This document shows positions 20,434-47,356 of a stretch of DNA of 64,000 bases, piece after piece. The DNA is from Octopus vulgaris (taxonomy: Eukaryota), in contig OX597830.1 in assembly GCA_951406725.2 (NCBI GenBank), positions 51,646,001 to 51,710,000 of the forward strand. The letters run 5' to 3'. A program made the position numbers and the translations under genes. The notes below the pieces were generated by a model. It was not told the DNA's origin. It did not search any database and saw nothing but the letters and a program-made list of their open reading frames with translations. Within the stretch, counting starts at the first letter, position 1; the number at the start of each line of letters is the position of its first letter.

Positions 20434-20524
20434 TTTTAGCTGATGAGTACGGGACACGTTTATATACTGTAATTTTTGCAATTTTTAATAAAACCTGTCC
20501 TTGTATGAAACGATCGTACTAAAA
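20434..20524 (+). ncRNA. Type I hammerhead ribozyme
   Basis: TTTTAG-CTGATGA-GTACGGGACA..TGTCCTTGTAT-GAAAC-GATC-GTA-CTAAAA: 6-bp stem I, intact core, palindromic ACGATCGT stem III. Confidence 0.82.
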
Positions 20525-21158
20525 ACCTATCCATTCTTGTTGCTTCATTCTCGTATATATATATATATATATATAAGACAATTTACTTAGAAGTTTGAAA
20601 ATGCACCTGAATTAGAAAAATGGGCAGTTGTTTTTAAATAGATTTATTGACATTTTTTTTTTGTTTATCAATGGTACAAATATATATGAAACAGGGGCAT
20701 TTTAACAGAGTTTAAAATTATAAATTAGAAATCGGACAACATGCTTGAACCATCAAATGATCAAATGAACACATGAAATTCACTGAGTTTCACAAGGGTA
20801 TATAATATTAAAGTATGTATTCGGCGAAGAATATAAGAAATGTACTTTATTGAAAGTTCCATCATATTGGGCTTTTATTGAATATGTGGACAAGAGAGGG
20901 AAGGAAAACAGAAGAGAGCTAAAGAAAAAGTATTTTTTCTTTAATTTCTGTCGATGTGCGTGTAGTTCTTGTTTTCTTTTTTCCCCTTCGCATACAGGTC
21001 CCTTCGAAAAACACCGTGAAAAGCGAAGTGTCCAGTACGTGAAGAATACAGGTTTTTCAAATTCAGGTGTATTTTCAAACCCCAAAACAAATTCCTCTAT
21101 ATTTCTTCTTGTGTGGGAATACACTCATTCTTTCTGTATATATTTATATTTACATATA

Positions 21159-21410
21159 TATTAGGTTTGCAACTAAGTTCCCGCCGTTTTTTAGAATCAA
21201 ATTTTTTAAAAGGTTTAATAAACAAATTAATCAATAATGTGTTCACCCTTGTTGTTTACAACTTCTTCCCAACGTTCAACAAGATTTTCAATACGTCTTT
21301 ATCATTCTCAATGCACCAATTACTACCGTATTTTGGTGATTTTTGTGATTTCAATTTGCAGATATTTATAGTGAGAGAGCTTTTCGTATTCCTTTCTTGA
21401 GAAATTTTGA
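21159..21410. mobile_element. mariner-like transposon end fragment
   Basis: TATTAGGTTTGCAACTAAGTTCCCGCCGTTTTT resembles mariner TIRs; followed by a reverse-strand C-terminal remnant. Confidence 0.55.
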
Positions 21411-21418
21411 TCTTGTAG

Positions 21419-21475
21419 AACAGACATATCTATTAACAGACATATCTATGGAACAGACATATCTATTAACAGACA
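21419..21475. repeat. Short tandem repeat (aacagacatatctat)x3.5 at the LINE truncation point
   Basis: Direct repeats visible in the sequence. Confidence 0.8.
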
Positions 21476-44306: not shown

Positions 44307-44376
44307 GTAGGTCCCGGGTTGAGTCGGGGTTAACCACAGTAAATAAGGTACTCAATACATAGCAGAGTAAATTAAT
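44307..44376 (+). repeat. 70-bp fragment of the 62592-62745 hammerhead element, between (TA)n tracts
   Basis: gtaggtcccgggttga.tcggggttaaccacagtaaataaggtactcaatacatagcagagtaaattaat is the reverse complement of ~62676-62745. Confidence 0.85.
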
Positions 44377-45649
44377 ATATATATATGTATATATATATAT
44401 ATATATATATATATATATATATATATATATATGTATATGTATATATGTATATATATATATATATATATATATATATATATATATATATATATATATATAT
44501 ATATATATATATATATATATATATATATAATACACATACAATTACAATTAACATCAACTTAATGAATATATATTTTATATTAAAATTTTCGTTTATTTAG
44601 ATGATACTTTGTTTTTGTCATTTAAAAGATAAACATAATTTATTTTATCAAATATCTTTAGTTAGAATTATTTTATTTACGCTTAAAGAATATTGAAGTT
44701 ATTGAATTTTCTGTTAATATTTATTCATTTAAGGTCTACCACAAAATGCAAGTATTTTTTCTCATCTCCATACATACATTCATATATCCCCCTCCATCTC
44801 TCTCTCTCTTTTTCTGTCTCCCTCTCACGCACGCGCACACACACACACACACACACACACACACACACACACACACACAAGAACTACAAGTTACCTTCAA
44901 TTATTCTTATGTTTAATATTAGTAATTAATTTGCATGTGTGTGTCATCGGGTGTACACGCGCATGTGAATATGTAATTGCATGTAGTGACATGGTTATTG
45001 CTTCTTATCAGGGAAACTCTAATCGCACAGATCCCACCAATGGATACGATCCATATGTAGTTATCTTGTCCTTGTAGAAACTATTTTGAAGTTAAATTAT
45101 ATAACTGTTCCTTCGCGATCTTATACAAATTTCATCCTTATATCTAGCACATTGAACAACTGTATAGATGCTCCAATGTGTGTGTCACAGTTGTCAGAGG
45201 TTTCATGTATTTTTTTTTTCTAATTTCTGTTTTGCTGTAGAAATATTGCATTTTGAATCAGTTTTCCTTCTCAGTTAAACCCTTTTTTCCGTCATCCACC
45301 ATAGAGTCTAACGTTTTGTGAGCTGAACTTAATTTCAATCAATCGCTCAATAATAATATCTTTCGGGGATTAGCTTTCAGAATTCTGAGCAAATGAAAGT
45401 TTGCAGGCTCTGTTTGACATGTCTTCCATAGGTATTCAAGGGACTCAACATACTCCATGTGTGATGCAACAGTTTAGTAAATAACCGAAAACCTTTTCAT
45501 ATGTTACACTTCTTTGATTTGGATTGATGTTACTCTTCAGTGCTTCAGCTTAGCTCTGCTCTTTTTATATATGCACGTATACACACACACACACACACAT
45601 ATATATATATATATATATATATATATATATATATATATATATATATAAC

Positions 45650-46045
45650 TTATAAATAAGCGCAAAAGAAAAATATTTCTAATGCCAAATATGCCGAAAA
45701 TGGACACATCATCAATAACCATGTAATTCATCAATATAAGCACGCGTCTCGAAGAAAGCCGACAGAAATTTCTAAAAAATTCCCTTATTACCATATCGGA
45801 CACGATTACAGAGTTAATTCATAGGAACCTTCTCTTTGTCAGTGATAAATGCGGCAAAGATATAAATGAAATACTTACTTATACCCATGGAAGAAGCAAA
45901 CACTAAGTCATGAGCACAATTAAGTACCCCAAATATGTCCAGCATATTTGCCCTCGTTTATAAGTTGTTTATAAATTTAACCTTTAAAGGTATTTTTTAA
46001 TATGCTGGCCATTGATAAAATTTTTTTTCGAAAAATTTTATCCTA
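45650..46045 (-). mobile_element. Second, older copy of the 9203-9960 family with inverted terminal segment
   Basis: Colinear with 9290-9585; inverted segment ~45946-46045; hammerhead core decayed (CTGACAA/GTAAT); (TA)n flanks. Confidence 0.75.
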
Positions 46046-47273
46046 TAATATATTATATATATATATATATATATACATATATACATACATACATGTACAT
46101 ATATATACACACACACATATATATAGATACATATATACAAGTATATGTGTGTGTGTTTTTCTGTTCAAAGTATACTTCTGGCTCATTCTTATTATCTGTA
46201 GGGTAAAACGTGGGAATAAAACCGCAGTTAAGACCCGTGTGCGTTCTAAAAGAGACTGAATGCCTGTTTTCTGTTGCGACATTTCACGTTTCCTTGTGAT
46301 ACGATATTGCACAACACGGAAGCATATGAACGTTAACAATCCATATACTATTTTTGTTAGTTCTATTCCAAAGACAATCGACTTAATTGTTAAACACCTT
46401 GAACACATAAACACTCTTTAGTACTGGAACATGACTGAATAAAATAAATATGTGACAGGGCAGTAAAAAAGGCAGTTTTGCATTGGAGTCCTCATTATTG
46501 CTCTGGTTTTTCCCCTGTGAATTATAAACGGAACGGTCGTTATATGAACGATTTGTCCCGACTTGGCGTTTGACACCTCTCAATTGCAATATAATTTGCT
46601 GCACACACATACACTCGCACATGGACATGGAAAATTCTCTGTCAAATGAATCGTAGCTAGCGTCAGTTATTGTATATATTGCCGATGAAGTTTTAGTAGA
46701 TTAACACAAGGTCGATGATTATTCCTCTGGACATGTTATCTACTTGTTCTTTCTTTATAAAGAAGATACATACCATTACATTGCTTCCGGTTTTAGTACG
46801 ATGATAGCGTTGTAATATAAGGGAGATTTGCTCATCATTTCTAGTAGGTCAAATGGCCTCGCAGTACTTAATCTATTGCAGTAAATCTTGGAAGTGAATC
46901 ATTTCTTACTACCAATGCTAAGATAAAGTTTTATGATTACGGTGAAGAGTGAGCCTTATACATAATACTTCTATTTTTCTGTACAACAGGGAAATTTTTA
47001 TTATCGTTGAAGTAAATCTACAAACATATTTCGTTGGAGAAAACTACGCTGTACCATCGCCAATTGTTGCTGTCGTAGTACTTTCCCCACTCAAGTGGAA
47101 AAAACGCCGCCTGTTTTTGAGTTCGATGTGGCTGACAAGAAGCTTCAATCAACGTTTCTAAATTAGAGGGTCGATCCACAGAATCAAATAATAAGTAATA
47201 TATGTATACACACACACACGCACACACACACACATATATAAATAGATATATATATATATATATAGTTCCTTAC

Positions 47274-47356
47274 TTTTCCTGATGAGAAGGCGGCATAATG
47301 CACCCCTTATTCCTTCGAAATTAGGAATATGCATCCTTCGAAACACATGTCGAAAA
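47274..47356 (+). ncRNA. Type I hammerhead ribozyme in a ~150-bp cassette between (TA)n tracts
   Basis: TTTTC-CTGATGA-GAAGGcgGCATA..TATGCatCCTTC-GAAAC-ACAT-GTC-GAAAA. Confidence 0.8.

What the first reader, a model, noticed from the sequence alone, without database searches (positions are those of the whole stretch)
20434..47356. Hammerheads with unusually large stem II insertions combined with minimal palindromic stem III
The distance between CUGANGA and GAAA is 60 nt (20447-20506), 51 nt (36229-36279) and 54 nt (47286-47339). It may be ~85 nt at 10773-10857 and over 100 nt at 37075-37210. Stem III is only about 2 bp with self-complementary loops (GAUC, AAUU, GGCC, AUAU). Canonical minimal Penelope hammerheads have short stem II, so standard descriptors would probably miss these. 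This may be a distinct structural subclass.
Basis: partly seen in the sequence, partly recalled or inferred. Interest (0 to 1): 0.7.

Follow-up and report, generated by a model that had tools for sequence, protein, structure and literature searches.

The report
Long-armed hammerheads of Penelope retroelements
These are hammerhead self-cutting RNA motifs with an unusually long, base-paired side arm at the tail of Penelope-type jumping genes; the long-armed form outnumbers the ordinary short form in this animal genome and falls outside the published minimal-hammerhead search pattern, and it is predicted to cut as a pair of RNAs, which is untested.

Summary
The three main motifs are real type I hammerheads with 60-, 51- and 54-nt domain II; none of 200 shuffles gave a palindromic hit. 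They sit at the 3' ends of Penelope-like elements with Hydra-clade motifs (20434, 47274) and in a 533-bp protein-less tandem repeat (36215). Genome-wide, motifs with 30-90-nt arms give 51,537 matches (control 2,883), against 15,379 short ones (control 1,231). The arm is an imperfect rod held by compensatory changes. Its length follows the reverse-transcriptase lineage, but lineages share no arm sequence and lengths run from 6 to about 97 nt. It is a variant, not a discrete subclass. Rfam misses them, but misses the short ones too; the published descriptor caps the arm at 26 nt. The palindromic stem III is the known dimer signature. 10766 is a decayed copy of an 85-89-nt family. The '>100 nt' case at 37075 is not a long arm: it belongs to a repeat whose hammerhead has a rearranged strand order, apparently tens of thousands of sites. 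Cleavage is untested. The scan noted both classes before, on other DNA of this and other genomes.

The parts
20434..20524 (+). Family A type I hammerhead: stem I 6 bp, 60-nt domain II (20447-20506) holding AAUAAA, loop III GAUC, predicted cut after 20518
   Evidence: covariation in the family A group
19691..19781 (-). Identical inverted twin of the family A hammerhead
19543..20555 (.). Two-armed, 5'-truncated insertion of the family A Penelope-like element (3' UTR only) between TA runs; long arm on -, 218-bp arm on +
   Evidence: near-full ORF copy L031; 1159 genome candidates
36215..36298 (+). Family B type I hammerhead: stem I 7 bp, 51-nt domain II (36229-36279), loop III AAUU, predicted cut after 36291
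   Evidence: domain II z -3.5
35384..35467 (-). Family B hammerhead, tandem copy 1 on the minus arm
34851..34934 (-). Family B hammerhead, tandem copy 2, 533 bp further on
34701..36521 (.). Two-armed insertion of the 533-bp non-coding tandem repeat (retrozyme-like) between TA runs
   Evidence: (2004 candidates; arrays of 7 or more units)
47274..47356 (+). Family C type I hammerhead: stem I 5 bp, 54-nt domain II (47286-47339), loop III ACAU here (AUAU in relatives), predicted cut after 47351
47265..47412 (+). 3'-terminal fragment of the family C Penelope-like element between TA runs
   Evidence: (2122 candidates)
10463..10969 (.). Old two-armed insertion (arms 77% alike); + arm has a decayed hammerhead with 85-nt domain II (core 10766, GAAA 10858), - arm has a mutated first core
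36724..36803 (-). Decayed hammerhead with rearranged strand order (upstream stem II strand, cleavage block, GAAA block, CUGAUGA last)
37060..37230 (+). Truncated inverted arm of the same repeat; core mutated, cleavage and GAAA blocks absent; not a long-stem-II hammerhead
30077..30158 (+). Further decayed long-armed motif (arm about 58 nt, AUAU loop, GAAA mutated)
   Evidence: (E 0.035); read by eye

Best explanation
These are type I hammerhead motifs with a 51-60-nt base-paired helix II at the 3' ends of Penelope-like retrotransposons with Hydra-clade motifs (20434, 47274) and in a 533-bp protein-less tandem repeat (36215) that is likely mobilised by such elements; they are predicted to cut the element's RNA mainly as dimers through the self-complementary stem III, and the long arm is likely a tolerated, lineage-inherited extension rather than a new catalytic module. 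Shown here: the anatomy, the link to RT/endonuclease ORFs for A and C, the copy numbers, the pairing and covariation of the arm, and the palindromes. Inferred: two hammerheads in a tandem transcript (or two transcripts) swap stem III strands to form an 8-bp duplex and cut after NUH. This would release unit-length RNA that may circularise and is reverse-transcribed from fixed sites downstream of the ribozyme into TA runs. Selection would only need the arm to fold back so that the base of helix II closes next to the core. Two-armed genomic copies would mostly be locked as long hairpins and be inactive.
For: Among 33 elements picked by RT similarity (44-100% identity to L031), 24 carry a sense hammerhead 0.57-2.2 kb behind the endonuclease, all with 47-60-nt arms; 8 had none in the stretch fetched and 1 hit was spurious. 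Arm length follows the RT tree: 57-60, 51 and 47-56 nt. Covariation: family C group, 6 of 11 basal arm pairs changed on both sides, 87% of cells paired, 0 of 500 shuffles as high. Family A group, 12 of 25 pairs, including 5 of 6 in stem I and 6 of 10 in the basal arm. In the pattern-derived sample of arms of 30 nt or more, 35 of 51 sequence groups have a Watson-Crick palindromic loop III (background 10%), and stem I of 3 bp or more forms in 55% of representatives against 9% with swapped partners. Stem III as a hairpin costs +2.4 kcal/mol, as a self-duplex it gains 6.4-10.0, and the forced monomer fold lies 2.7-9.2 kcal/mol above the minimum. 3' ends of copies cluster at two fixed sites per family, like the PLE tail signature (PMC11167929). 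Dimer cleavage of short-stem-III hammerheads is established (PMC4209133, PMC6765202).
Against: No cleavage data. 5' ends of copies do not pile up at the predicted cut: none within 3 nt in families A, B (0 of 25) or C; the loci were chosen to hold the whole motif, which biases A and C. Family B arrays run through many intact sites, so templates were uncut or circular. In a Poseidon element, cleavage needed protein and was dispensable for insertion in vitro. Invertebrate hammerheads with a 2-bp stem III and tetraloop are reported to cleave as monomers, so the dimer step may not be needed. The aligned sequences are related, so the shuffle controls overstate significance, and 'pairs with a change on both sides' was not above shuffles (183 of 500). 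No autonomous partner of family B was found. No tree with reference PLE clades was built.
Confidence: 0.68

Rival explanations
1. The long arm is a functional module: an internal loop or bulge 4-6 bp from the core docks on stem I in place of loop 2, or the arm presents a signal such as the element's poly(A) hexamer or a protein-binding site, so these are fast, possibly monomeric ribozymes of a distinct kind.
For: An invariant bulged U after 5 bp in 13 of 13 family A group rows and a 2x2 loop after 4 bp in family B. AAUAAA/AUUAAA lies in the 3' strand of the arm 22-33 nt before the cut in 17 of the 19 arms that hold one, in two RT lineages about 60% alike. Arms are conserved in length within lineages.
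Against: The hexamer is in only 19 of 76 long arms (shuffle mean 9.8, maximum 21), and its reverse complement is in 28, so there is no strand-specific enrichment. No recurring Watson-Crick pseudoknot between unpaired arm bases and 60-nt flanks in the A, B or C groups. A family C model scores B at 22.9 and A at 16.7 bits against 111.8 for itself.
Confidence: 0.2
2. The motifs no longer cut. They persist as a structural signal for the Penelope protein (RNA binding, start of reverse transcription), and the arm grew because catalysis was relaxed.
For: No copies start at the cut site. PLE minimal hammerheads are slow in vitro, and cleavage was not needed for insertion in the one reconstituted element. 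A long arm removes the canonical loop 1-loop 2 contact (inference).
Against: Both core boxes, NUH and the palindrome are kept in all three RT lineages sampled, and stem I covaries. Palindromes of different sequence (AGCU, AAUU, GAUC, AUAU, ACGU, CUAG, GCGC and others) point to selection for dimer pairing.
Confidence: 0.1
3. Chance matches in AT-rich repeat DNA.
For: Some pattern hits are chance: the reversed controls are 4-8% of matches.
Against: 0 of 200 shuffles give palindromic hits; 12- to 22-fold genome-wide excess for the long classes; covariation.
Confidence: 0.01

Closest known systems
Hammerheads in pLTRs of Hydra-clade Penelope-like elements (Craig et al. 2021, PMC8557442; passages, section 11, supplement parts 1-2 and search passages read)
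   Same: Type I, 3' position, TA-run insertion, inverted truncated copies, palindromic stem III; the family A ORF has RWK, DKT, CxCx5C, CxxC and CxH.
   Different: All 26 Hydra rows of File S2 have domain II of 26 nt or less by my reading (Hydra-1_oBim 23 nt); here 47-60 nt in the elements sampled and up to about 97 nt genome-wide. One non-Hydra row (PLE-X1_sMoe) has about 53 nt and is marked as deviating.
Minimal hammerheads (min-HHR) of metazoan PLEs (Cervera and de la Pena 2014, PMC4209133; parts 1-2 of 4 and supplement passages read)
   Same: [quoted passage not shown]
   Different: The descriptor caps domain II at 26 nt; these keep a 2-bp stem III with tetraloop and have multi-segment arms of 15-25 bp.
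Animal non-LTR retrozymes (PMC7229834 and PMC7761336, passages; bioRxiv 10.64898/2026.07.22.740005, parts 1-2 of 5)
   Same: Family B: non-coding, AT-rich, tandem units each with a type I hammerhead, thousands of copies.
   Different: Long arm; two-armed PLE-style insertions in TA runs; circular RNA not shown here.
Type-SGC hammerheads (Eckert et al. 2023, PMC10085705; section 13 and passages read), for the 36724-36803 motif only
   Same: Cleavage block, then GAAA block, then CUGANGA; short linker between stem I and stem II strands.
   Different: Here the 5' strand of stem II usually comes from a separate upstream segment instead of following CUGANGA, and the motif is in an animal genome; the paper found no SGC example in genomes of known organisms.

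Membership tests
Type I hammerhead ribozyme | CUGANGA and GAAA core boxes, A15.1-U16.1 pair, NUH site | tested here: met
   for A, B, C and twins; kept in 24 of 33 RT-selected elements
Type I hammerhead ribozyme | Three helices around the core, stem I open | tested here: met
   G10.1 pairs with C (B, C) or U (A)
Type I hammerhead ribozyme | Loop 1-loop 2 tertiary contact or pseudoknot | tested here: inconclusive
   No recurring Watson-Crick pseudoknot within 60 nt; non-canonical contacts cannot be seen with these tools
Type I hammerhead ribozyme | Site-specific self-cleavage | not testable with these tools
   needs an in vitro assay
Rfam Hammerhead_1 (RF00163) | Score at or above 34 bits | tested here: not met
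   A and B no hit at E<=10, C 25.4 bits; 0 hits in 12 further loci, long and short
min-HHR of PLEs | Stem II 3-7 bp with loop 3-10 nt and no stem III loop (GAAANNUH) | tested here: not met
   descriptor against arms of 51-60 nt and an 8-nt stem III
Hydra-clade PLE | RT with RWK and DKT, C-terminal GIY-YIG-type endonuclease | tested here: met
   L031 ORF; DKT in 30 of 33 RTs. Motifs read by eye or regex; Pfam gave no hit for L031 and a weak RVT_1 for the family C RT
Hydra-clade PLE | CxCx5C linker, CxxC and CxH in the endonuclease | tested here: inconclusive
   All three in family A; family C shows CxxC and CxH but no linker cysteines in L090
Hydra-clade PLE | Insertion in (TA)n, inverted 5'-truncated copies | tested here: met
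Hydra-clade PLE | Placement in the clade on a tree with reference PLEs | not tested
   no reference proteins were available as tool sequences; the tree holds only this genome's RTs
Non-LTR retrozyme (family B) | Non-coding tandem unit under 1 kb, hammerhead in every unit | tested here: met
   533-bp period, no ORF of 200 aa in 30 loci
Non-LTR retrozyme (family B) | Accumulates as circular RNA | not testable with these tools
   only assembled contigs of guessed RNA runs were offered; a circle cannot be told from a tandem array
Type-SGC hammerhead (36724-36803 family) | Block order cleavage site, GAAA, CUGANGA with crossing stems I and III | tested here: met
   35 distinct motifs in 1.49 Mb of loci, 0 in reversed sequence; 89% of cells paired in this family without covariation, 15 of 22 pairs covarying in a sister group
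Type-SGC hammerhead (36724-36803 family) | Stem II 5' strand directly follows CUGANGA | tested here: not met
   local stem II of 2 bp or less in 27 of 35; an upstream strand pairs 5 bp or more in 25 of 35 (no control for that search) and covaries in 4 of 6 pairs

The most novel reading that the evidence does not exclude
In this lineage the Penelope hammerhead has been rebuilt twice out of reach of published search patterns. One form is long-armed (about 49,000 matches above control, roughly three quarters of the type I motifs of this stem III class), with an arm that serves as a working platform, docking on stem I or presenting the element's poly(A) signal at the right distance from the cut. 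The other is a strand-rearranged form at some 26,000 sites. Both would cleave, and animal ribozyme counts and the claim that some Penelope clades lack hammerheads would need revision.
Probability: 0.3. Interest if true: 0.78.

Novelty: new variant of a known kind. Interest (0 to 1): 0.5.

Why it matters
The role of hammerheads in Penelope-like elements is an open question, and censuses rest on descriptors that cap helix II at about 26 nt. Here most type I motifs of the commonest stem III class lie beyond that cap, including those of young, near-identical families with intact ORFs, so counts in such genomes are likely several-fold too low. A natural length series from 6 to about 97 nt on one core, with matched RT lineages, makes it directly testable whether loop 2 contacts matter for these ribozymes. 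The catalytic chemistry itself is probably ordinary.

Tried and rejected
Rfam scan of the whole window: only microsatellite miRNA noise among the 150 of 366 rows shown. A long insertion at 37075: rejected. A type II reading of that family: rejected because the bases after the local GUA vary while the upstream hexamer does not. A general poly(A)-signal role: not supported. A pseudoknot to the flanks: no recurring one. 5' truncation at the cut site: none. Naiad membership of A and C: rejected, the endonuclease is C-terminal. Upstream ORF search from pattern hits: only 3 of 136 had RT or EN within 2 kb, because most copies are short stubs; short-armed families could therefore not be tied to an RT lineage, and whether long arms arose once or several times is open. 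Expression: no RNA holder listed. Contigs of guessed RNA runs cover families A and B and some bridge the predicted cut, with an excess of A>G and T>C differences, but they show neither ends, strand nor circles and lack a matched DNA control; not used as evidence. One search used a mis-indexed structure and is superseded. Literature: 9 searches listed no paper on long-helix-II PLE hammerheads or on octopus hammerheads beyond Craig 2021. Lunse et al. 2017 (PMC5785218) and Arkhipova et al. 2017 (PMC5850863), the two most likely places for precedent, are not held and were not seen. One supplement file of PMC4209133 could not be searched, and bioRxiv supplements are closed.
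Full report
Observation. A descriptor with free helix II length finds 7 motifs in the window: family A at 20440 (+) and 19775 (-), family B at 36222 (+), 35460 (-) and 34927 (-), family C at 47279 (+), and one weak hit at 9484 (-). Five have a perfectly palindromic stem III. 200 block-wise dinucleotide shuffles gave a mean of 0.025 hits and no palindromic hit. Each domain II folds on its own as one imperfect rod closing at the core, with z -1.5, -3.5 and -2.3. The loop at 47340 is ACAU in this copy; most relatives have AUAU.

Context. 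The window lies in a 2.8-Gb animal assembly; its repeats look octopus-like to me, from recall and untested. Each motif belongs to a young family: 1159, 2004 and 2122 first-look candidates, the best 40 being 97-100% identical. Copies sit in TA runs, often as two inverted arms. A family A copy (L031) has a 954-codon open frame with RWK, DKT, a CxCx5C linker and a C-terminal endonuclease with CxxC and CxH, the marks Craig et al. give for the Hydra clade; its hammerhead lies 1.56 kb behind the ORF in sense. Family C lies about 0.6 kb behind a related endonuclease. Family B is a 533-bp tandem unit with no long ORF, in arrays of up to 7 or more; I found no autonomous partner for it. Its words are held by runs of 9 studies under 6 organism codes.

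How common. The pattern CUGANGA-N-GAAAC-NNNN-GUH gives 15,379 matches for N of 6-29 (reversed control 1,231), 37,104 for 30-60 (1,658) and 14,433 for 61-90 (1,225). After subtracting controls, long arms are about 77% of this stem III class. These are matches, not loci: nested cores can count twice, decayed copies are included, and other stem III forms are excluded. I fetched the 90 loci offered and 40 more chosen's first 100 rows to favour diversity. They held 136 distinct motifs with domain II from 6 to 112 nt; the 112-nt case is a nested duplicate, so the longest credible arm is 97 nt. The 104 motifs of 30 nt or more fall into 51 sequence groups. 35 of 51 groups have a Watson-Crick palindromic loop III against a 10% background, and stem I of 3 bp or more forms in 55% of representatives against 9% for swapped partners. 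Neither feature was part of the pattern.

What the arm is. In 15 family C group sequences, 6 of 11 basal arm pairs change on both sides and 87% of cells pair; the apical hairpin is weaker at 76%. In 13 family A group sequences, 12 of 25 pairs covary, including stem I and the basal arm. Slid controls are far lower in both, though related sequences inflate such tests. Among 33 elements chosen by RT similarity, not by motif, 24 had a sense hammerhead downstream, all with arms of 47-60 nt; 8 had none in the stretch fetched and 1 hit lay inside an ORF. Arm length tracks three RT lineages. Across lineages the arms are not alignable, and a family C model finds B (22.9 bits) and A (16.7 bits) only weakly. 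No recurring pseudoknot to the flanks was found. A poly(A) hexamer occurs in 19 of 76 long arms, nearly always 22-33 nt before the cut and shared by two lineages, but it is not enriched over shuffles or over its reverse complement. So the arm is an inherited, paired extension of helix II of variable length, not one shared module.

How it likely works. Stem III as a 2-bp hairpin costs +2.4 kcal/mol, the 8-nt palindromes self-pair at -6.4 to -10.0, and forcing the monomer fold costs 2.7-9.2 kcal/mol. With the published behaviour of short-stem-III hammerheads, this predicts cleavage by dimers in tandem transcripts. 3' ends of copies cluster at two fixed positions per family, matching the internal initiation described for a Poseidon element. 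Against this: no 5' ends fall at the cut site, family B arrays run through intact sites, some 2-bp-stem invertebrate hammerheads are reported to cut as monomers, and cleavage was dispensable in vitro in the Poseidon system. Every step after the RNA fold is inferred.

Detection by standard tools. Rfam has no hammerhead hit for A or B and 25.4 bits for C. It also misses short-armed copies at its cut-off; 2 of 6 short-armed loci reached 32.2 and 29.6 bits. Published Hydra hammerheads have arms of 26 nt or less by my reading of File S2, with one 53-nt exception in a plant PLE outside that clade. Nine literature searches listed nothing on long-armed PLE hammerheads, but two key papers were not available.

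The two doubtful examples. 10766 is a worn copy of a family with an 85-89-nt arm and a GGCC loop (13 of 20 copies with a full core), but its stem I is only 2-3 bp. 37075 is not a long arm: none of 21 copies has the second half downstream. On the intact arm (window minus strand, 36803-36724) the order is an upstream stem II strand, then the cleavage block, then GAAA, then CUGAUGA. A scan for this order found 35 distinct motifs of several unrelated families in the 1.49 Mb fetched, and 0 in reversed sequence. In a sister group 15 of 22 pairs over four crossing helices covary; the window's family fits the same wiring at 89% without covariation of its own. A looser pattern gives 35,037 raw matches against 841. 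21 of the first 100 rows are overlapping doubles, all on the + strand, so I estimate about 26,000 sites, and 20 of 30 sampled loci had stems I and III paired. It resembles type SGC, which Eckert et al. did not find in genomes of known organisms, but usually lacks a stem II strand directly after CUGANGA. I reached the block order; earlier scan notes describe the same motif, tie it to Naiad elements and name the extra strand, which I then tested. I did not test the Naiad link.

Verdict. The finding is real and abundant, and a new variant of a known kind. The scan had noted long-armed hammerheads before, in this and other genomes. Interest 0.5.

Noticed in passing
window 36724-36803 (-); L005, L016, L055, L056, L111, L123, L189, L302, L346, L356-L385: Hammerheads with rearranged strand order (cleavage block, GAAA, CUGANGA; stem II closed by an upstream strand) in several unrelated repeat families, roughly 26,000 sites by my estimate; four crossing helices covary.
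   Followed up: partly
PMC8557442 supplement, end of the Naiad record printed before Naiad_Hpol: By eye, a CUGAUGA with 5-bp stem II whose 46-nt loop contains the cleavage site and the partner strands of stems I and III, a non-circular order (C, S, G) in a clade reported to lack hammerheads.
   Followed up: no
window 42305-42365 (+): Hammerhead-like motif with 5-bp stem I, an odd palindromic stem III of the Hydra type, a GUU site and an asymmetric 31-nt domain II.
   Followed up: no
window 9400-9490 (-), repeats at 9191-9878 and 45634-46081: Decayed long-armed motif (about 62 nt) in another two-armed repeat, related to L163.
   Followed up: no
window 11950-12790 (+): Broken C-terminal endonuclease fragment resembling the Hydra-type ones found here; no Pfam hit.
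   Followed up: partly
L094, L099, L200: Long arms that contain a second CUGANGA in their 3' half, giving a nested short and long reading on one GAAA; a possible trace of arm growth by local duplication.
   Followed up: no
window 36190-36245: A 9-nt segment of the family B arm's 5' strand is repeated about 32 nt upstream of the core and could compete for the arm's 3' strand.
   Followed up: no
window 20315-20321 (+): A CUGAAGA on the antisense strand of the family A 3' UTR, with flanks like family B's core; no GAAA/NUH partner seen.
   Followed up: partly
L031 ORF: Long asparagine-rich low-complexity linker of several hundred residues between RT and endonuclease, also in family C; ORFs of 840-1200 codons against the under-3-kb elements described for Hydra.
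   Followed up: no
window 12900-15340 and 39300-42110: Two broken LINE-type elements with AP endonuclease and RT fragments.
   Followed up: no
window 13-613, 1262-1646, 18553-19032, 23804-24228: Tandem copies of a 182-185-bp SINE-like unit.
   Followed up: no
window 20340-20556 and 35960-36430: Contigs of guessed RNA runs carry clustered A>G and T>C differences, as editing of fold-back transcripts would give; no matched DNA control, so unverified.
   Followed up: partly
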